Below are positions 11,109 through 47,438 of a stretch of 64,000 nucleotides of DNA, in pieces. The notes beneath the pieces are model-generated. The model searched no databases and had not been told where the DNA came from. It saw only the letters and a program-made list of their open reading frames with translations. Source of the stretch: an uncultured bacterium (lineage in GTDB: Bacteria > Desulfobacterota_D > UBA1144); assembly GCA_913050245.1 (NCBI GenBank), contig CAJWZJ010000005.1, positions 30,931-94,930 on the forward strand, in the 5' to 3' direction. The first letter of the stretch is position 1. Every line of letters begins with the position of its first letter. The translations under genes were made by a program, and so were the position numbers.

Positions 11109-12141
11109 TCTTGGTAAATTTGGATCACGATTTGTATCAAATAATAAAGAATTTAATAGGTACATAAAGCTGAAATACATTAAATTTTTCTTCCTCTTAT
11201 CAACTTTTCTTCTATTACCTCATACTTATTTTGCCAAAGAGTATAATAGGAGTTTTATAATATGGGGGACAAATTTTGATTTACAAATAAAATCAAACTT
11301 GGACAAGAAAAGTTTAAATTTAATATCAGAAGAATCAGTCAATATTTTAAATAGATTAAATATCATTTTTAATAATTATCAAAAGTTATCTGAAATTACT
11401 ATTTTCAATGAATCAAAAATAAATTCAGAAATATCAATTTCCCCTGAATTTGTTGAACTATTAATAGAATCCAAAAAATATCATGAAATATCGGATGGTT
11501 ATTTTGATATAACAATTGGAAATTTAACGTCAAAATTTGATTATAAAAATGTCGATAAATCAATCCAAATAAAAAAAAATCAATTCGATTGTAGCGGTTG
11601 GGAAAATATATTATTGGTCAAAAATAATTCTGCTCTAATTAAGAAAAAAAATTGCATTAATATTGATTTTGGCGGAATCGCTGAAGGCTATGCATTAAAA
11701 AAGATAATAAAGTTTATTAATCAATCAGGAATTGATGATGCAATTATTAATTTTGGAGGAAATATCTCAACATTATCTAAAAATCAAGATTGGGAAGTTT
11801 ATATTAATTACCCTTCAAAGGAACCTAAACCATTTAAAAAGATAAAACTTAATAACCTATCTATTTCAACATCATCTCTATATGGGAAATCTATTAAAAT
11901 TAATGGGGATAAAATGTCACATATATTTAATCCTAAAAATAAATTATTTTTAAAATATAAAAATTTATCGGTATCAGTTATTTCCGATGACCCCATATAT
12001 GCAGATGCTATGTCCACAGCTTTAATTTCAATGGATTACTCAGACATGGAAGCATTTATAGAAAAGAATAATATAAAAGTTATAGTTCTTGGAGAGAAAG
12101 ATGGGAAAGGAGAAGTTTTATATATATCTGATGGTATATAA
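11098..12141 (+). CDS. apbE: FAD:protein FMN transferase ApbE
   Basis: SDGYFDITIG, IDFGGIAEGYA, INFGGNI, SISTSSLY, SHIFNP, ADAMSTAL. Exact start uncertain. Confidence 0.93.
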   Translation: MTVDLGKFGSRFVSNNKEFNRYIKLKYIKFFFLLSTFLLLPHTYFAKEYNRSFIIWGTNFDLQIKSNLDKKSLNLISEESVNILNRLNIIFNNYQKLSEITIFNESKINSEISISPEFVELLIESKKYHEISDGYFDITIGNLTSKFDYKNVDKSIQIKKNQFDCSGWENILLVKNNSALIKKKNCINIDFGGIAEGYALKKIIKFINQSGIDDAIINFGGNISTLSKNQDWEVYINYPSKEPKPFKKIKLNNLSISTSSLYGKSIKINGDKMSHIFNPKNKLFLKYKNLSVSVISDDPIYADAMSTALISMDYSDMEAFIEKNNIKVIVLGEKDGKGEVLYISDGI

Positions 12142-17043: not shown

Positions 17044-17838
17044 TTAATTTGTTTTATAAATTATTATACCAGGCTTATTTTTTATATATTCGAAGAAATC
17101 CTCGTCGATAACTTTCATATATTTTTTTTTGCTAGAAGCATGTCTAAAAATAGCATTTCCTTCATTGTCCCATAATAAAAAACCAACATGCGATACGTCC
17201 AATCCAATTTTATTTGATAAGATAGCAACTATATAATGATTTTGTTTATCTTTTAAGCCTAAAACAACCTCTGAGCCTTTATCTATTGAAAAGTATTTTA
17301 TAATTTTTTTCTTTAAGGGTATTCCCTCTAGGTATCTATCATGTTCGCCTTTTTTATTTAAAATTTTAGCAACTTCCTTATTATATCCTTCAACTAACTC
17401 AATATCTCCATTGTCAGTCCAATCTGTAAAAAAATGATTTCTATTAATAAAATTTATTCTACCCATATCATATCTATATTCTCGAACTTTTGTTTTAAAA
17501 ATTCTGAAATTTTTGGAATTTGCCAAGGAATGAACATATTCAACATAAGTAAAACAATCTAGTCTATTAAGATCAATAATAAAAGTCTCTTCAATATCTT
17601 TGGAACCAATTAGCACATTGCCAACATATGGCTTTCCAATTAGGGAGAAAGAATATCTATAATATTTTTCATGGTAAGGCAGATGATGATTTAATTTCAA
17701 TAGATCTTCAATTTCTGTTTTGTTAAAAAAACTTGTATTTTTTTCTTGACTATAAACTTTGGAAGATAAAATTATACATAAAATTATAATTAAACAGAAT
17801 AAACTAGCTAATAATTTTTTTTCTTTTTGAAATTTCAT
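17044..17838 (-). CDS. DUF1460 / NlpC-P60-superfamily N-acetylmuramoyl-L-alanine amidase-like protein
   Basis: RLDCFTYVEY catalytic Cys, RNHFFTDW, GLDVSHVGF, FRHASS; N-terminal hydrophobic signal. Confidence 0.85.
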   Translation of the reverse strand: MKFQKEKKLLASLFCLIIILCIILSSKVYSQEKNTSFFNKTEIEDLLKLNHHLPYHEKYYRYSFSLIGKPYVGNVLIGSKDIEETFIIDLNRLDCFTYVEYVHSLANSKNFRIFKTKVREYRYDMGRINFINRNHFFTDWTDNGDIELVEGYNKEVAKILNKKGEHDRYLEGIPLKKKIIKYFSIDKGSEVVLGLKDKQNHYIVAILSNKIGLDVSHVGFLLWDNEGNAIFRHASSKKKYMKVIDEDFFEYIKNKPGIIIYKTN

Positions 17839-29045: not shown

Positions 29046-29990
29046 ATGTCAAATCCTTTTGAAACTTTAAAGTCCGAACTTGATGAACTAGTAGTTGGTC
29101 ATAGTGAAGTCAAAACTGCTTTACTTCTTGGCATAGTAGCTAGGGAGCACATATACATTCAAGGACCTCCCGGAACTGCAAAAACAATGCTCTCTGAGAT
29201 TGTTTCAAAATCTGCTGAATTAAATTTCTTCTTTTACCAAATGCATAGAGATACAAGACTTTCAGAATTAGTTGGAGATTTAGTTATTTCAAGAGAAGAT
29301 ACAAATGATGGTGAAATAATTAGGCAAAATATTATTAAAGGCGGTATATTAACATCCGATATTTGCTTACTAGATGATATATCTAGAGCTCCAGGAGAGT
29401 CATTAAATGTTTTACTTAGAATATTAAATGAACGTAAATATGGTGACGAAGACATACCGTTGTTAACAGCTATAGCTACTAGTAATCCTACTGCTGATGA
29501 ATATTATAATGAACCTCTAGATCCTGCTAATTTAGATCGTTTTGTTATCCAGGTCAATTCAAAAGGTATTTCTTACTCTAAACAATGGGACGATGTTAAA
29601 AAAATAATTAGCTTATATTCTACTAAAACTGGGCAAAATGATTTTGTAGCAAAGGTTGGTAAAAAAGCTCTTGATGATAGCTTCAAAAAGCAAGAAAAAG
29701 TTGTTATCCCTGTTGATGTTCAAGAAGGTTTATCTTCTTTCATAAGCTGGCTAGTAGAAGATCAAAGGCTTAATGAATCTAATTCTGTTATTTCTGATAG
29801 AACATTTTTAGTTAAATCATTAAAATTGATTAAAGCTAATGCAGTAATTGACGGAAGAGACGAGGCAAATATATCGGACTTAAAAGTCCTTAGGTTTTTA
29901 TTACCTTTTCGTGTTCCCGAAGAAATTTTAGAAGCTGCTGAACAAAAATTGGAATCTTTTGAGAACCAAAAAAAAAAGACCAAGAAATAG
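29046..29990 (+). CDS. MoxR/RavA-like AAA+ ATPase
   Basis: GPPGTAKT Walker A, LLDDISRA Walker B (DD), ATSN sensor 1, LDRF arginine finger. Confidence 0.88.
   Translation: MSNPFETLKSELDELVVGHSEVKTALLLGIVAREHIYIQGPPGTAKTMLSEIVSKSAELNFFFYQMHRDTRLSELVGDLVISREDTNDGEIIRQNIIKGGILTSDICLLDDISRAPGESLNVLLRILNERKYGDEDIPLLTAIATSNPTADEYYNEPLDPANLDRFVIQVNSKGISYSKQWDDVKKIISLYSTKTGQNDFVAKVGKKALDDSFKKQEKVVIPVDVQEGLSSFISWLVEDQRLNESNSVISDRTFLVKSLKLIKANAVIDGRDEANISDLKVLRFLLPFRVPEEILEAAEQKLESFENQKKKTKK
29968..29978 (+). other. A10 homopolymer containing the A_AAA_AAG slippery heptamer (candidate recoding site)
   Basis: CAA AAA AAA AAG, three codons before the AAA+ stop; the -1 frame is open from 29963 into the vWA ORF. 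Confidence 0.7.
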
Positions 29991-30091
29991 AGAATAAGCA
30001 AAAAAGAGAAGGTGGAGATTACGAAAAGGATTCACCTAATAAACAAGCTGGAGATAACCAGGATAAAAATTCTGATATTACTGAAGAGCAG

Positions 30092-31147
30092 ATGAGTGAT
30101 GCAGAGAACTCATTTATGCAGGCTCTAGAAGAATTACAAGATAATTTGACTAGCGAAGATAATTCTAAACCTTTAGATTCGGATAAAAAGATTCCTACAA
30201 ATCCATCAAATAAGAGTGAAGATGATGGTGAAGGTGATATGAACAATGCACCGTTATCAGAAAAGGTATATGCTACAAAATCCAAAAGAGCTGGTGACAC
30301 TGATGCTTCAAAAATTGGAACAGAGGACAATCAAGAAATAGCTCAGAATGTGCAAATAGTTATGAAAGTTTTAGAAGGAAACATTCAAAGAAGTATTGCG
30401 AAAAGAGGACACTATCCTGGTGGGCTGCCAAGAAGATATAAGAGAATGAATTCATTTTATGAAATTGATGATGTAGATCCTATAGATGCAGCTATTTGGT
30501 CAAGAAATTTATCACCTCAACTACCAAGGGTTCATCAAAGAGAAAAAGAGATGATGGGGGGCGAGATTGCAATTTTAAGAGATATTAGTACATCCATGAT
30601 GGGCGTCTACAGCGAATGGTCTTCTTCTGTGGTAAAAGCTGTAATAGAACTTGCTAGGACAAAAAGGATGAGGGTTGGATATATTGAATTTAATCATAAA
30701 TCTTATAAAACAATTGTTGATGAAAAATTTTTTACTAAAGAGTATGAGACTATACTTGATCAAGCAACAAAAACTGAATGCTCAGGTAATACAAATTACG
30801 AGGAAGCTTTAAAGGATGCGATATCTGATTTTAAAGGTAGGGGTTTAAGAAATAAACATATACTTTTTATAACAGATGGAATACCTACGTCGGGAGATAC
30901 TGAAGTTAAAAGGGAGAGAGAAAGGGCTAAAAAATTAGGTATCTGTATTCATTCTATATTTATTGGATCTAAGAATTTTCCTTTCATTTTAAATACAATA
31001 TCAAAAGAAACTTATGGATCACAATTTGTAGCATACCGTGCAAAAAATGGAAATATTAAGATAGAGAAGAAAGAAAATAGTCTTCAATTCAAGAAGCAAG
31101 CTCCAACTGAGGACCCTGACAGTGAGAATCTTCTAAACTTTATTTAG
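30092..31147 (+). CDS. vWA (MIDAS) domain protein with a long acidic N-terminal linker; frame open upstream to 29963
   Basis: LRDISTSM (DxSxS), GNTNYEEAL, LFITDGIP. No SD evident before 30092. Confidence 0.85.
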   Translation: MSDAENSFMQALEELQDNLTSEDNSKPLDSDKKIPTNPSNKSEDDGEGDMNNAPLSEKVYATKSKRAGDTDASKIGTEDNQEIAQNVQIVMKVLEGNIQRSIAKRGHYPGGLPRRYKRMNSFYEIDDVDPIDAAIWSRNLSPQLPRVHQREKEMMGGEIAILRDISTSMMGVYSEWSSSVVKAVIELARTKRMRVGYIEFNHKSYKTIVDEKFFTKEYETILDQATKTECSGNTNYEEALKDAISDFKGRGLRNKHILFITDGIPTSGDTEVKRERERAKKLGICIHSIFIGSKNFPFILNTISKETYGSQFVAYRAKNGNIKIEKKENSLQFKKQAPTEDPDSENLLNFI

Positions 31148-43184: not shown

Positions 43185-44492
43185 TTGCAAAAATTTAATG
43201 GAATAGAAATTATCGGTGCTGGCCTTGCAGGTTGTGAAGCTGCAAATCAAATATCAAAAAGAGGGATAAATGTAAGATTATATGAGATGAAGCCGAAAAA
43301 ATTTTCAGCTGCTCATACTTCTCCCAATTTTTCAGAACTTGTTTGCAGTAATTCATTAAAATCTAATGATCCAGAGAAAGCCGCAGGGATTCTAAAGAAT
43401 GAAATGCTTAGATTAGATTCTTTGATTTTAGAATCGGCATTAAAATTTCAAGTATCAGCAGGTGGGGCGCTTGCTGTTGATAGAGAAGAATTTTCAAATT
43501 ACATAACTAAAAAAATAAATAAAAATCCTTTAATTGAAGTTATCAGTGAAGAATTCTCCGAAATTCCAATTGACATAGAAAAACCATTGATAATATCCTC
43601 TGGCCCATTAACATCAGAAAGTTTATCTAATAGCATTGAAAAATTTTGTGGAACAGACTCATTATCTTTTTATGATTCAATTTCGCCCATAATACTTTAT
43701 GACTCCCTAGATAGTAAGAGTTTTTTTAGAGCATCAAGATATGAAGAAAAACAAGCAGATTATATTAATTGTCCACTAAGTGAAATTGAATATAAAAAAT
43801 TTATTGCAGAATTAATTGCTTCAGACAAGACTGAATTTCATAGTTTTGAAAAAATTAAATATTTTGAAAGTTGTCTTCCAATTGAGGTTATGGCGTCAAG
43901 AGGTGAAGATACATTAAGATTTGGGCCAATGAAGCCAGTTGGATTAATTGATCCTAAAACTCAAAGAAGACCTTATGCTGTCATACAATTAAGGAAAGAA
44001 AATGAGAATGAGTCAATGTGGAATATAGTTGGATTTCAGACAAAGATGAAAATTAATGAACAAAAAAGGGTTTTTGGAATTATACCCGCATTAAAAAAGG
44101 CGGAGTTTTTAAGATTTGGAAGTATTCATCGTAATACATATTTAAATTCACCTGGAATTTTAAAAAATACATTACAAACAGTAAAGAATCCCAATGTTTT
44201 TATTGCGGGTCAGCTTACAGGCGTTGAAGGATATACTGAATCTTCTGCCATGGGGATTGTTGCTGGAATAAATGCATCAAGAGTCTTCAATAATCATAAA
44301 CCAATAGAGTTTCCCAAAACAACAGCAATAGGTACTTTATTAAATTATCTATCTGAAAATACTGATAAGGAATTACAGCCTATGAATATAAATTTGGGGC
44401 TTTTCAATATAGAAAAACCAAAAAAAAACATAAATAAAATTATTAATAATTCAAAAAATGGTATGGAGGAGATTATAAATATAATAAAATAG
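43185..44492 (+). CDS. trmFO: tRNA (uracil-54) methyltransferase TrmFO
   Basis: IIGAGLAGCEAA, ELVCSNS, LRFGPMKPVG, GQLTGVEGY. Confidence 0.96.
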   Translation: MQKFNGIEIIGAGLAGCEAANQISKRGINVRLYEMKPKKFSAAHTSPNFSELVCSNSLKSNDPEKAAGILKNEMLRLDSLILESALKFQVSAGGALAVDREEFSNYITKKINKNPLIEVISEEFSEIPIDIEKPLIISSGPLTSESLSNSIEKFCGTDSLSFYDSISPIILYDSLDSKSFFRASRYEEKQADYINCPLSEIEYKKFIAELIASDKTEFHSFEKIKYFESCLPIEVMASRGEDTLRFGPMKPVGLIDPKTQRRPYAVIQLRKENENESMWNIVGFQTKMKINEQKRVFGIIPALKKAEFLRFGSIHRNTYLNSPGILKNTLQTVKNPNVFIAGQLTGVEGYTESSAMGIVAGINASRVFNNHKPIEFPKTTAIGTLLNYLSENTDKELQPMNINLGLFNIEKPKKNINKIINNSKNGMEEIINIIK

Positions 44493-45376: not shown

Positions 45377-47438
45377 TCTAGAATTTTTTTTAGAAATTTA
45401 TACTGAAGAAATTCCTGCAAGACTAATAAATGACTTGTGTAGACAGCTTGAAAATAATTTTACTAAACTTCTTAATGAAAGAGATATAAATTTTGATAAA
45501 GTTGAGTCCATGTCAACACCCATGCGATTAGTAATATTTGTAAATGGTTTATCAGATAAAAGTAAAGATAAAAAATTAGAAATATGGGGTCCTCCTGAAA
45601 ATATAGCAATCTCAGAAAAAAAAGAATTATTGAAGCCTGCAAAATCTTATATGGAAAAAAATAATATTAATGAAAAACAAATATTGATAAGAGAAAAAAA
45701 TGGAATGAAATATCTATATTGTGAAAAAGTTGTTAAAGGTACTAGTAATAAGGAAAATTTGAAAGATATTACAATAAATTCATTAAAAAATATAAAAAAT
45801 AAGAAGTTTATGAAGTGGGGAGGTGTAAATTTTGAATTTATAAGACCAATCAGAAATATTTATGCCAACTTTAATAAAAAATTTTTGAAAATTAATTTTT
45901 CAAATATTCCGTCAATTAATATAATTAAAGGCCATAGATTTTCAGAAAAGGCAAAAAAAAATATTTTGAATTTTAATGAGTATAAAAAATTTCTTAAAAG
46001 TTCAGATGTAATCCTAAATTTTAAAGATAGAAGAGAAAAAATTATCAATGAAATTAAAAAAATCGAAGAGAAAAATCATTTTCATGTTAACCCTGATAAA
46101 GATTTGATTGATCATGTTGCCAATCTAACAGAATATCCAAAAGTTCTTATAGGAAACTTTGATAAGAATTTTTTAAGTATTCCTAAAGAGGTTATTAATT
46201 CAATCATGAAAAATCATCAAAAGTATTTTTCTGTATTTTCATCACCGAAAATGAATAAATTAATGCCTAGTTTTATTTTTGTCGCTGGCTCACCATATTT
46301 AAACAAAAGGAAAGTAATAGAAGGAAATGAAAAAGTTTTAGCAGCAAGGCTAAACGATGGAAAATTCTTTTTTGATGAAGATATGAAAGTAGGACTAAAA
46401 AATATAGGAAAAAAAATAAATTCTATAACTTTTATTGAAGGAATTGGAAACTATGGTGATAAGTCAGAGAGAATAAAAGATTTAGCAAACTTTATAAATA
46501 TCAAATTAGATTTAGGAATAAATAAGAATGATATTGATGAAGCATCTTTGTTATGCAAGGCAGATCTAGCATCACAAATGGTTTTTGAATTTCCTGAGTT
46601 ACAAGGGGTTATGGGAGAATATTATTATTTAAAAAATAATAAATCAGTTGCTAAAAGTATCAATGAACATTATCTACCCAAAACAAGGGATGATGATTTA
46701 CCTTTTAGTAATTTATCTAAATTAATAAGTATTTCAGATAAATTTGATACTATTTCTTCTGCTTTCCATATGAATTTATTACCTACCGGGAGTTCTGATC
46801 CTTATGGACTTAGAAGGTGTTGTATAGGTATAATTAGAATTGTAGAGAAGCTAGGAATTAATTTAGATTTAATTGAAATCTTGAATGAGTCTTTCTCAAA
46901 CATTGAGAAAAGAGTAAATAAAAATAATAAGGAATCTTTAAATAGGGTTAAGTTGTTTTTTGCTGAAAGAATTAAAAATTATTATGCAGAGGATGGCTTT
47001 AGTATAAATATTTTGAATTCTGTATTACATAATTTAAATTCACTAGATTTAATTAAGATTAAGAAAAAAATTTCTATAATTAAAAAGCTTGACGGTTCAA
47101 ATGAACTTTTGAAAGTTACCGAAGTATTTAAAAGATTGAAAAATATAACAAAAAATAATTCAAACAATAAAGTTAATGAGAAATTATTTGTTAATGATTT
47201 TGAAAGAGAAATACATTCGGAGATAAACCAGATTAATGAACAATTTATTAATAATCCATCAAAGAAAGAATCAGAAGAGTTTTTAAAAAAAATTATTTTG
47301 TCTTCATCAGTTCTTGCAAATTTCTTTGATAATGTAATGGTAATGGATAAAGATGAAGATATAAAAAATAATAGATTAAATCTTTTAACAGATTTTAAAA
47401 ATCTTATATCCGAATTTGCAAATTTTTCGGAATTATAA
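45363..47438 (+). CDS. glyS: Glycine-tRNA ligase beta subunit
   Basis: [40 protein letters not shown]. Confidence 0.95.

What the first reader, a model, noticed from the sequence alone, without database searches (positions are those of the whole stretch)
29046..31147. AAA+ and vWA genes joined by a slippery A10 site: one locus may make a short ATPase and a 700-aa AAA-linker-vWA fusion
Seen in sequence: the MoxR/RavA-like ORF ends CAA AAA AAA AAG ACC AAG AAA TAG. This contains 10 consecutive A (29968-29977, the longest homopolymer I found in the window) and the heptamer A_AAA_AAG. The -1 frame is open without a stop from 29963 for 43 codons (KDQEIENKQKREGGDYEKDSPNKQAGDNQDKNSDITEEQ) directly into the vWA ORF, and continues the same acidic low-complexity linker. 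That stretch has no start codon, and ATG 30092 has no clear SD. A -1 ribosomal shift or one slipped A gives a 700-aa fusion. Established knowledge: A_AAA_AAG drives -1 frameshifting in dnaX and IS elements, A9+ runs cause RNA polymerase slippage, and some chlD-type chelatase genes use frameshifting to make both AAA-only and AAA-vWA subunits. Inference: this is a MoxR-type (non-chelatase) analogue in which recoding sets the ATPase to vWA adaptor stoichiometry.
Basis: partly seen in the sequence, partly recalled or inferred. Interest (0 to 1): 0.88.

Follow-up and report, generated by a model that had tools for sequence, protein, structure and literature searches.

The report
Conserved poly-A slip site joining MoxR-vWA
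What looks like two neighbouring genes (an AAA+ ATPase and a vWA adaptor) is one gene interrupted at a run of ten A's, and because that run is kept in every relative examined, the cell most likely slips one base there to make both a short ATPase and a long ATPase-vWA protein.

Summary
A10 lies at 29968-29977. The AAA+ frame stops four codons later. The -1 frame is open from 29963 to 31147, with no start codon for 43 codons.

The organism is a marine Candidatus Dadabacteria with a genome of about 1 Mb and 30% GC. In 154 of 154 family members read, an uninterrupted A9-A12 run sits at this same boundary. These come from across Dadabacteria and from Tectomicrobia- and Abyssobacteria-labelled relatives, at 28-64% GC.
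- 106 loci are split and need a -1 shift, like this window.
- 43 are in-frame fusions of about 700 aa that still keep the run.
- 4 need +1, and 1 contig is truncated.

Synonymous sites inside the run are frozen, while neighbouring third codon positions vary freely. No start codon for the vWA part is conserved. In a fold model of a natural fusion, the KKK encoded by the run marks the exact end of the folded AAA+ module.

This fits programmed recoding, most likely RNA-polymerase slippage with a possible contribution from -1 ribosomal frameshifting. It would yield an AAA-only and an AAA-linker-vWA product.

The ATPase is MoxR/RavA-type, not a ChlI/ChlD chelatase. I found no published report for this family.

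The parts
29046..29990 (+). ORF1, zero frame: MoxR/RavA-type AAA+ ATPase, 314 aa. It has Walker A GPPGTAKT, Walker B LLDD, and an AAA lid at residues 243-286. This is the short product.
   Evidence: PF20030 at 77 bits, PF07728 at 67 bits, PF07726, PF17868. (best PDB sequence matches are MoxR 2R44 and RavA). (one ortholog in each of 41 of 41 relatives).
29968..29977 (+). A10 homopolymer, the proposed slippage site. One extra A in the mRNA, or a -1 ribosomal shift, joins ORF1 to the vWA frame.
   Evidence: sequence. (A9-A12 at the homologous position in 154 of 154 family members). (synonymous sites frozen). (one of only three runs >=10 in the genome).
29972..29978 (+). In-phase heptamer A_AAA_AAG inside the run, a candidate -1 ribosomal frameshift site.
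   Evidence: Read directly. In-phase AAG is present in some split lineages but not in others, such as AAA AAA AAA AGC in family f4.
29988..29990 (+). Zero-frame stop TAG, four codons after the run. It ends the short product with the tail ...KKKTKK.
   Evidence: In all 106 split(-1) loci the zero-frame stop follows within a few codons of the run (count of 4-9), and the tail sequence is not conserved between families.
29963..30091 (+). Stretch of the -1 frame with no stop and no ATG/GTG/TTG (43 codons). It forms the start of the acidic linker of the long product.
   Evidence: The alignment shows it is collinear with the linker of natural fusions.
30092..30094 (+). First canonical start codon in the vWA frame. 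It is not conserved (I or L in sister genera) and has no SD-like motif.
   Evidence: alignment: M, I, L, L at this column within family f1. (first start lies a median of 46 codons after the run, its position varies, and 14 of 106 have an SD-like motif).
29963..31147 (+). Open -1 frame of 394 codons: acidic linker plus a C-terminal vWA domain. The conceptual long product is 700 aa.
   Evidence: (natural fusions at 60% identity over 97-99% of the conceptual fusion).
30566..31051 (+). vWA domain (PF00092, residues 202-363 of the -1 frame translation).
30581..30595 (+). MIDAS motif D-x-S-x-S (DISTS) of the vWA domain.
   Evidence: Read directly. The D, S and S columns are invariant in alignments A1 and A3.

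Best explanation
This is one ancestral gene for a MoxR/RavA-type AAA+ ATPase joined by an acidic linker to a vWA (MIDAS) domain. It is interrupted at a conserved A10 tract placed exactly at the end of the folded ATPase module.

Standard decoding gives the 314-aa ATPase alone. A fraction of expression events shift into the -1 frame at the run and give a 700-aa ATPase-linker-vWA protein. The most likely route is RNA polymerase adding one untemplated A while transcribing the tract (transcriptional slippage). A -1 ribosomal shift on A_AAA_AAG may also contribute.

The two products presumably co-assemble into a hexameric ring that carries fewer than six vWA arms. Run length would then set the ratio. 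In lineages where the genome encodes the fusion in frame, the same tract would yield the short form instead.

Shown here:
- the anatomy of the locus;
- strict conservation of the run at nucleotide level across more than 150 loci and several phyla, in both coding configurations;
- collinearity of the conceptual product with natural fusions;
- lack of a conserved vWA start codon;
- the position of the site at a domain boundary.

Inferred only:
- that slipped mRNA and both proteins exist;
- which machine slips;
- that the two products form mixed rings.
For: (1) Conservation. The ortholog is present in 118 of 120 genomes of the phylum. An uninterrupted A9-A12 run sits at the AAA/linker boundary in 154 of 154 family members, from loci of 28-64% GC.

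(2) Selection at nucleotide level. Elsewhere in the same genes the AAA share of Lys codons falls to 0.48 at 45-55% GC and 0.36 at 55-70% GC, yet the run is never broken by AAG. In the 20 codons upstream, the commonest base at third positions averages 0.44. Inside the run it is 1.0.

(3) Both configurations keep the run. There are 106 split loci needing -1, 43 in-frame fusions and 4 needing +1. In the fusions, the -1 and +1 frames usually stop within 1-15 codons of the run.

(4) The fusion product looks real. Natural 700-715-aa proteins are 56-60% identical over 96-100% of the conceptual product. Tectomicrobia- and Abyssobacteria-labelled proteins are 43-48% identical over 95-97%. Motifs downstream of the run align between split and fused forms.

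(5) No independent vWA start. The first ATG/GTG/TTG lies a median of 46 codons after the run, its position varies, and an SD-like motif is present in 14 of 106. The -1 frame is stop-free in all 106.

(6) Domain boundary. In the AlphaFold model of natural fusion P0002, K310-K312 marks the start of the low-confidence linker that follows the last AAA+ helix.

(7) Evidence favouring transcription over translation:
- No run is shorter than 9, although 7 would suffice for a heptamer.
- The run starts at codon position 1, 2 or 3 in different lineages.
- No conserved stimulatory RNA structure was found.
- The genome avoids runs of 10 or more (3 seen against about 18 expected), and one of the three is in dnaX, a gene where poly-A slippage is published (PMC3711429).

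(8) Precedents. Poly-A recoding in 'Mg chelatase'/chlD genes reached 63%, 40% and 10% in E. coli with 11, 9 and 7 A's (PMC3711429). The A11 tract of tssM was shown to be transcriptional slippage with both products needed (PMC4256274). Selection against runs of about 9 or more is described in PMC1088944.
Against: There is no RNA or protein evidence.

Every genome in the comparison is a MAG or SAG, and none is from a cultured organism.

A run of 9 or more always contains an in-phase A_AAA_AAA or A_AAA_AAG heptamer, so ribosomal frameshifting cannot be separated from transcriptional slippage by sequence alone.

A few loci differ by one A from near-identical relatives (L014/L047, L092, L133, L137, L162, L173). 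These may be assembly errors, DNA-level length polymorphism or RNA-derived contigs.

The mixed-ring stoichiometry idea rests only on analogy.
Confidence: 0.75

Rival explanations
1. The recoding is real, but it is mainly -1 programmed ribosomal frameshifting on A_AAA_AAG or A_AAA_AAA, as in E. coli dnaX. RNA polymerase slippage would be minor.
For: The window has an in-phase A_AAA_AAG. So do the A11 phase-1 and A10 phase-2 lineages. Among split loci, 106 of 110 need exactly -1. The published poly-A chelatase sites were first described as frameshifting (PMC3711429, PMC5009743).
Against: The run is never shorter than 9, although a heptamer would do. Many split lineages lack the efficient AAG A-site codon, for example AAA AAA AAA AGC in family f4. 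No conserved downstream structure or upstream SD-like stimulator was found. Four loci need +1, which -1 frameshifting cannot supply. The genome-wide avoidance of runs of 10 or more matches the signature of transcriptional slippage (PMC1088944).
Confidence: 0.17
2. The tract is a DNA-level contingency locus. Replication slippage would switch cells heritably between a split (OFF) state and a fused (ON) state, which is phase variation.
For: Near-identical sequences differ by one A. L173 has A11 where relatives have A10. L162 has A12 where L139 has A11. L037 has A12 where L036 has A11. L047 has A9 where L048 has A10. L133 has A10 where L122 has A11.
Against: The split state is fixed within whole families. 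All 9 unique loci at >=85% identity and 20 of 21 at 70-85% have A10 needing -1, and families f3 and f4 are likewise uniform. Even so, the vWA frame stays intact and conserved in all of them. A locus held permanently OFF would decay. The protein is cytoplasmic housekeeping-like, not a surface antigen.
Confidence: 0.04
3. These are two ordinary genes left after an old fusion split. The vWA protein would start at its own codon (ATG 30092 here), and the A run would only encode a Lys-rich tail.
For: ATG 30092 exists and ORF callers annotate two genes. Distant relatives at 33-52% identity are true two-gene operons, two of them with overlapping ATGA (L219 and L222).
Against: The Met is not conserved even within the family. 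The first start varies from -1 to 377 nt past the stop, and an SD-like motif is present in 14 of 106. The 43 start-less codons are stop-free and homologous to the linker of natural fusions. The run is uninterrupted even at 55-64% GC. The true two-gene relatives have no run at all.
Confidence: 0.03
4. This is an assembly or sequencing error. The true genome would have A11 and a plain fused gene.
For: Homopolymers are error-prone, and a few outlier lengths exist.
Against: The same A10 and frame relation appear in independent Illumina MAGs, a single-cell genome (AG-470-J09), closed single-contig chromosome assemblies and many metagenome contigs. A zero-frame stop always follows within a few codons (count of 4-9).
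Confidence: 0.01

Closest known systems
Frameshifted chlD / 'magnesium chelatase' genes (Antonov et al. 2013, PMC3711429; Antonov 2020 as cited in PMC9227772; review PMC5009743)
   Same: An AAA+ module, acidic linker and vWA domain are encoded in two overlapping frames joined at an A-rich or poly-A site. Natural in-frame fusions occur in other taxa. The proposed outcome is a short AAA+ subunit and a long AAA+-vWA subunit from one gene. Shift efficiency rises with run length.
   Different: The ATPase belongs to a different AAA+ clade. The best matches are MoxR 2R44 and RavA, and Pfam bpMoxR, AAA_5 and AAA_lid_8. Mg_chelatase PF01078 scores 20.0 bits on 38 residues, below its 20.3-bit cut-off, and TIGR02442 scores 23.5 bits against a 779-bit cut-off. 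The partner large subunit CobN/ChlH is absent from this genome and from 39 of 41 relatives. The gene stands alone between rnc and proB. No downstream stimulatory structure was found.
dnaX tau/gamma production by poly-A transcriptional slippage (Thermus A9; two-ORF dnaX with A10, PMC3711429)
   Same: An A9-A10 run at a domain boundary gives a full-length and a truncated protein that co-assemble. Both genomic configurations exist in nature, with recoding needed for either the short or the long form. This genome's own dnaX carries such an A10.
   Different: The protein family and complex are unrelated. For dnaX the products and mechanism are experimentally proven. Here they are inferred.
Citrobacter rodentium tssM1 A11 transcriptional frameshifting (PMC4256274)
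   Same: A stop codon is preceded by a poly-A run. Extra A's in the mRNA restore the long form. Both length variants and their ratio matter for function.
   Different: In tssM the split looks like a lineage-specific 'rescue'. Here the tract is conserved across a whole phylum and beyond, in both split and fused genes.
MoxR-vWA pairs such as RavA-ViaA (MoxR-class AAA+ ATPases with a vWA partner; partly from my own knowledge)
   Same: A MoxR-class hexameric ATPase works with a MIDAS-bearing vWA partner. The ATPase of this locus resembles MoxR 2R44 and RavA in sequence and fold.
   Different: Those systems are known to me as two separately translated genes, with no recoding described. That statement rests on my own knowledge plus empty literature searches. 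This family lacks RavA's C-terminal domains, since the ATPase is only 314 aa. The substrate is unknown.

Membership tests
Programmed poly-A slippage (transcriptional realignment) site | Uninterrupted A/T run of about 9 or more at the point where the frames change | tested here: met
   A10 at 29968-29977. A9-A12 in 154 of 154 family members, and never shorter than 9.
Programmed poly-A slippage (transcriptional realignment) site | The run is conserved at nucleotide level, synonymous sites included, beyond what coding requires | tested here: met
   The AAA share of Lys codons elsewhere in the same genes is 0.36-0.48 in GC-rich loci, yet no AAG occurs in the run. The commonest base at third positions has frequency 1.0 inside the run and 0.44 upstream.
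Programmed poly-A slippage (transcriptional realignment) site | The downstream frame is conserved, open back to the run, and lacks a conserved initiation site of its own | tested here: met
Programmed poly-A slippage (transcriptional realignment) site | The mRNA population is heterogeneous in the number of A's while the DNA is uniform | not testable with these tools
Programmed poly-A slippage (transcriptional realignment) site | Two protein products, short and trans-frame long, are detected | not testable with these tools
   No proteomics was available.
dnaX-type -1 programmed ribosomal frameshift | In-phase X_XXY_YYZ heptamer | tested here: met
   A_AAA_AAG at 29972-29978. Any run of 9 or more contains A_AAA_AAA in phase. 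In-phase AAG is present in only part of the split lineages.
dnaX-type -1 programmed ribosomal frameshift | Conserved stimulators: an upstream SD-like element and/or a downstream stem-loop or pseudoknot | tested here: not met
   Mean folding z-scores were -0.8 upstream and -0.4 downstream. RNAalifold found no consensus pairs in 53 sequences for the upstream 48 nt plus the start of the run. A hairpin in family f4 is not maintained. By eye, no consistent SD-like motif was seen.
fs-chlD / class I chelatase medium subunit | ChlI/BchI-type AAA+ module (Pfam Mg_chelatase; TIGR02442 or ChlD models) | tested here: not met
   PF01078 scores 20.0 bits against a 20.3-bit cut-off, on 38 residues only. TIGR02442 scores 23.5 bits against 779. 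No chelatase chain appears among the PDB sequence matches at E<=0.001 or the top 50 fold matches.
fs-chlD / class I chelatase medium subunit | A CobN/ChlH large subunit is present in the same genome | tested here: not met
   PF02514 is absent from the own genome. Among 41 relatives only 2 score above the cut-off, with 1 further weak hit below it, while the AAA-vWA gene is present in 41 of 41.
fs-chlD / class I chelatase medium subunit | AAA+ - acidic linker - vWA(MIDAS) architecture with the recoding site at the AAA/linker boundary | tested here: met
MoxR/RavA-class AAA+ with vWA partner | MoxR-class ATPase domain and lid scoring above the curated cut-offs | tested here: met
   PF20030 at 77 bits (cut-off 27), PF07728 at 67 (22), PF07726 at 43.7 (27) and PF17868 at 34.4 (22.8). 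The RavA model NF010054 scores only 57.7 against 681, so this is not a RavA equivalog.
MoxR/RavA-class AAA+ with vWA partner | Fold closest to solved MoxR and RavA structures | tested here: met
   Foldseek on the model of natural fusion P0002 gives 2R44 at E 6e-19 and RavA 3NBX at 4e-15. phmmer gives the same two best matches.
MoxR/RavA-class AAA+ with vWA partner | vWA domain with an intact MIDAS motif (DxSxS...T...D) | tested here: met
   DISTS lies at 30581-30595, with TDG further on. These columns are invariant in A1 and A3. PF00092 scores 39 bits.

The most novel reading that the evidence does not exclude
The poly-A tract may be an ancient two-way device that sets the ratio of products in one clade of MoxR-vWA genes, spread over at least three candidate phyla (Dadabacteria and Tectomicrobia- and Abyssobacteria-labelled lineages). 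On this reading it is kept whichever product the genome spells out. Evolution would tune the ratio of AAA-only to AAA-vWA subunits by changing run length (9-12) and by flipping between split and fused configurations. The cell would then build hexamers with a defined, sub-stoichiometric number of vWA arms. This would be a solution reached independently of the ChlI/ChlD chelatases, and it would make subunit ratio a general design constraint of AAA+/vWA machines.
Probability: 0.45. Interest if true: 0.72.

Novelty: new member of a known kind. Interest (0 to 1): 0.6.

Why it matters
Annotation pipelines call this locus two genes, an 'AAA family ATPase' and a 'VWA domain-containing protein'. They therefore miss the 700-aa product in most genomes of this phylum.

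If the recoding is real, it adds a MoxR-class family to the short list of cellular genes with conserved programmed slippage (dnaX, chlD, tssM, IS transposases). It would also be an unusually clear case, because the signal is kept in both split and fused genes.

It gives a direct experimental handle on an open question for MoxR-vWA chaperones: how many vWA adaptors work with one ATPase ring. The gene is near-universal in the phylum (118 of 120 genomes). It survives in 1-Mb streamlined marine genomes, so its unknown substrate is probably central to their physiology.

Tried and rejected

(2) Conserved RNA structure near the run.
- Single-sequence folds of the 45 nt upstream and 60 nt downstream in 50 loci gave mean z of -0.8 and -0.4.
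- RNAalifold on 53 diverse sequences covering the upstream 48 nt plus the start of the run gave zero consensus pairs.
- An attractive cUUCGg-type hairpin 5-10 nt upstream in family f4, with some apparently compensatory variants, is broken in many members. I dropped it as a general feature.

(3) Chelatase identity. Rejected on Pfam and NCBIfam scores, PDB and fold matches, and the absence of CobN/ChlH.

(4) Independent vWA promoter or start. Promoter-like hits were no more frequent than in shuffled sequence (13 against 11.0±3.2), and no start or SD is conserved.

(5) Literature. No paper in the library combines MoxR with transcriptional slippage, Dadabacteria with frameshift, or slippage with von Willebrand and AAA in a relevant way. 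Neither the 2016 recoding review (first 300,000 of its 449,034 characters held) nor Antonov 2013 mentions MoxR or vWA.

(6) coaBC A10 as a third programmed site. It is conserved only within the genus: 5 of 5 genomes of the genus have it, and the four more distant relatives I could read do not. It is probably just a tolerated Lys run.

(7) The PDB sequence search with the linker-vWA half found nothing at E<=0.01.
Full report
OBSERVATION.
- ORF1 runs from 29046 to 29990 (314 aa) and ends ...GAG AAC CAA AAA AAA AAG ACC AAG AAA TAG.
- The run of ten A's is 29968-29977.
- The in-phase heptamer A_AAA_AAG is 29972-29978.
- The stop is 29988-29990.
- The -1 frame is open from 29963 to 31147 (394 codons).
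- Its first ATG/GTG/TTG is the ATG at 30092, 43 codons after the frame opens.

Pfam assigns ORF1 to the MoxR group: bpMoxR at 77 bits, AAA_5 at 67 bits, AAA_3 and AAA_lid_8. It assigns the C-terminal part of the -1 frame to VWA. One extra A in the message gives a 700-aa product.

A10 is the longest homopolymer in the window. In a 30% GC genome an A10 alone is not unexpected, so the case depends on other evidence.

WHOSE GENOME. Record titles of the closest loci name Candidatus Dadabacteria, also labelled 'Thermodesulfobacteriota bacterium' or TMED58/UBA1144. All are MAGs or single-cell genomes. The window's assembly is 0.8 Mb and 80% complete.

COMPARATIVE ANATOMY. The ATPase has one ortholog in 41 of 41 relatives and in 118 of 120 genomes of the phylum. 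I read the junction in loci from four sources: whole genomes, a metagenome scan, and four out-group contigs.

After removing duplicates there are 158 loci. All 154 family members share at least about 45% protein identity, and all carry an uninterrupted A9-A12 run at the same place. Their local GC content ranges from 28% to 64%. They fall into these groups:
- 106 are split like the window and need a -1 shift (3 with A9, 71 with A10, 32 with A11).
- 43 encode the fusion in frame and still keep the run (10 with A9, 26 with A10, 5 with A11, 2 with A12).
- 4 need a +1 shift.
- 1 is cut by a contig end.

In-frame fusions dominate Dadabacteria families f6 and f7. They are also the form in the out-group clade, whose named members are labelled Tectomicrobia, Entotheonellaceae or Abyssobacteria. 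That clade has 50-60% GC and typically reads CGA AAA AAA AAA GTA.

The window's closest relatives are uniform. All 9 unique loci at >=85% identity and 20 of 21 at 70-85% have A10 needing -1.

Four more distant relatives (33-52% identity) have no run and are ordinary two-gene operons. Two of them have an overlapping ATGA (L219, L222). Still more distant fused homologs lack the KKK motif. The tract therefore characterises one clade of a wider MoxR-vWA family.

IS THE RUN SELECTED AS DNA? Yes.
- Elsewhere in the same genes, AAA makes up 0.77, 0.60, 0.48 and 0.36 of Lys codons as GC rises. Even so, no AAG ever interrupts the run.
- In the 20 codons upstream, the commonest base at third positions averages 0.44. 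In the run codons it is 1.0.
- The run begins at codon position 1, 2 or 3 in different lineages. The conserved feature is therefore the homopolymer, not a particular reading of it.

IS THE LONG PRODUCT REAL? Three lines of evidence say so.
- Natural proteins of 700-715 aa are 56-60% identical to the conceptual fusion over 96-100% of its length. Out-group proteins of 628-664 aa are 43-48% identical over 95-97%.
- An alignment across the junction shows that the -1-frame translation of split loci continues the motifs of natural fusions, such as SEFEQD and LSEARKTFFQALKELK.
- The Met at 30092 is I or L in sister genera.

Across the 106 split loci, the first canonical start in the vWA frame lies a median of 46 codons after the run. 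Its position ranges from -1 to 377 nt past the stop, and an SD-like motif is present in only 14. The frame is never interrupted. Promoter-like matches in the region are no more frequent than in shuffled sequence.

WHERE IN THE PROTEIN. I modelled a natural Dadabacteria fusion with AlphaFold (P0002; mean pLDDT 67.5, with the AAA+ blocks mostly at 70-94 and the vWA domain mostly at 62-84). The ATPase module is confident up to its last helix (300-305). Confidence collapses from residue 310. K310-K312 is the Lys triplet encoded by the run. The short product is thus a complete AAA+ module with a tail of a few residues.

WHAT KIND OF ATPASE. The best PDB sequence matches are MoxR 2R44 and RavA. The best fold matches are the same two.

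Chelatase models fail. PF01078 scores 20.0 bits on 38 residues against a cut-off of 20.3, and TIGR02442 scores 23.5 against 779. CobN/ChlH is absent from this genome. It scores above the cut-off in only 2 of 41 relatives.

The gene stands alone between rnc and proB, both on the opposite strand. Neighbours in out-group contigs are unrelated to one another, so the substrate is unknown. The MIDAS motif is intact (DISTS, 30581-30595). Walker B reads DD rather than DE throughout the family.

MECHANISM. Several features point to RNA-polymerase slippage as the main route:
- a conserved minimum run length of nine;
- independence from codon phase;
- no conserved RNA stimulator;
- alternative frames that usually stop within 1-15 codons of the run in fused genes;
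- four loci that would need the opposite shift.

The genome itself shows the signature described by Baranov et al. (PMC1088944). Runs of 7-9 are frequent, but runs of 10 are depleted (3 seen, about 18 expected) and none is longer. One of the three A10 runs lies in dnaX. Its alternative frames stop within a few codons, and A9-A12 is kept across the family. This arrangement is published for dnaX (PMC3711429) and serves as an internal control.

Ribosomal -1 frameshifting on A_AAA_AAG cannot be excluded and may add to the yield.

The closest published case is the poly-A site of 'magnesium chelatase'/chlD genes. It gave 63%, 40% and 10% shifted product in E. coli with 11, 9 and 7 A's (PMC3711429), so a sizeable long-form fraction is plausible here. 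The A11 tract of tssM was shown to act at the RNA level, with both products required (PMC4256274).

WHAT IS NOT SHOWN. The mixed-ring model, in which short and long subunits share one hexamer and run length tunes the ratio, is an analogy with ChlI/ChlD and dnaX. It is not a result.

A few loci differ by one A from near-identical relatives. They could be assembly errors, DNA polymorphism or RNA-derived contigs.

NOVELTY. Library searches found no report of recoding in MoxR-vWA genes or in Dadabacteria. Earlier AI notes from this scan reached the same reading for other Dadabacteria windows and for related families. They are not independent evidence. I reached this reading before consulting them and re-tested their claims here.

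The kind of mechanism is known. The family and the phylum-wide, two-configuration conservation are new. I therefore file it as a new member of a known kind.

Noticed in passing
L224 (G000:C4:22947-22956, minus strand; outside the window): The genome's dnaX gene carries an in-frame A10 (...LPEESKKKVKNSD...) near residue 405 of the 490-codon open frame. Both alternative frames stop within a few codons. A9-A12 is kept at the equivalent place in all 17 family-f1 genomes read, but no run of 8 or more occurs in the 13 family-f4 genomes at about 50% GC. It looks like the published poly-A tau/gamma slippage arrangement.
   Followed up: partly
L254 (G000:C2:91706-91715, minus strand; outside the window): The third A10 in the genome lies in frame in coaBC, in the linker upstream of the CoaB motif (...NFLKKKFKNKK...). 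It is conserved in 5 of 5 genomes of the genus but absent in the four more distant relatives I could read. It is probably a tolerated Lys run rather than a programmed site.
   Followed up: partly
whole genome G000 (/data/genome.fa): The homopolymer spectrum has a sharp cut-off. A/T runs of 7, 8 and 9 exceed iid expectation (1138 against 431, 492 against 151, 89 against 53). Runs of 10 are depleted (3 against 18) and there is none of 11 or more (0 against about 9). This suggests selection against slippage-prone runs from length 10 in this organism.
   Followed up: yes
L162 and L173 (also L144, L154, L159): Five short out-group contigs from the metagenome collection begin only 19-46 nt upstream of the start codon, as transcript ends would. 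Two of them carry one more A than their closest relatives: L162 has A12 where L139 has A11, and L173 has A11 where relatives have A10. If these records are metatranscriptome assemblies, they would be direct sightings of slipped mRNA. I could not establish the sample type.
   Followed up: no
window 29046-29990 (residues LLDDISRAPGE); alignments A1 and A3: The Walker B motif of this whole family reads hhhhDD instead of the usual DE. The second D is invariant in 16 and in 39 aligned sequences. The ATPase may hydrolyse slowly or be regulated differently.
   Followed up: no
P0124, P0127, P0132, P0147, P0149: More distant fused AAA-vWA homologs of 720-880 aa have long low-complexity linkers. Several (P0127, P0132, P0147, P0149) also have N-terminal extensions that look like organelle-targeting peptides. 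They may be eukaryotic (algal or protist) members of the wider family. None has the KKK/poly-A motif.
   Followed up: no
L137 (G033, closed 1.2-Mb genome) and L014/L047 (TMED58 MAG): These loci have A9 where sister genomes have A10, so the vWA frame is +1 rather than -1. They are either homopolymer assembly errors or natural variants. Only slippage, which can add or drop A's, could still decode such variants.
   Followed up: partly
window 305-313, 6843-6851, 7019-7027, 11571-11579, 44420-44428, 45953-45961 (A9); 17122-17130 (T9): There are seven further runs of nine A or T in the window. I did not examine their coding context or conservation.
   Followed up: no
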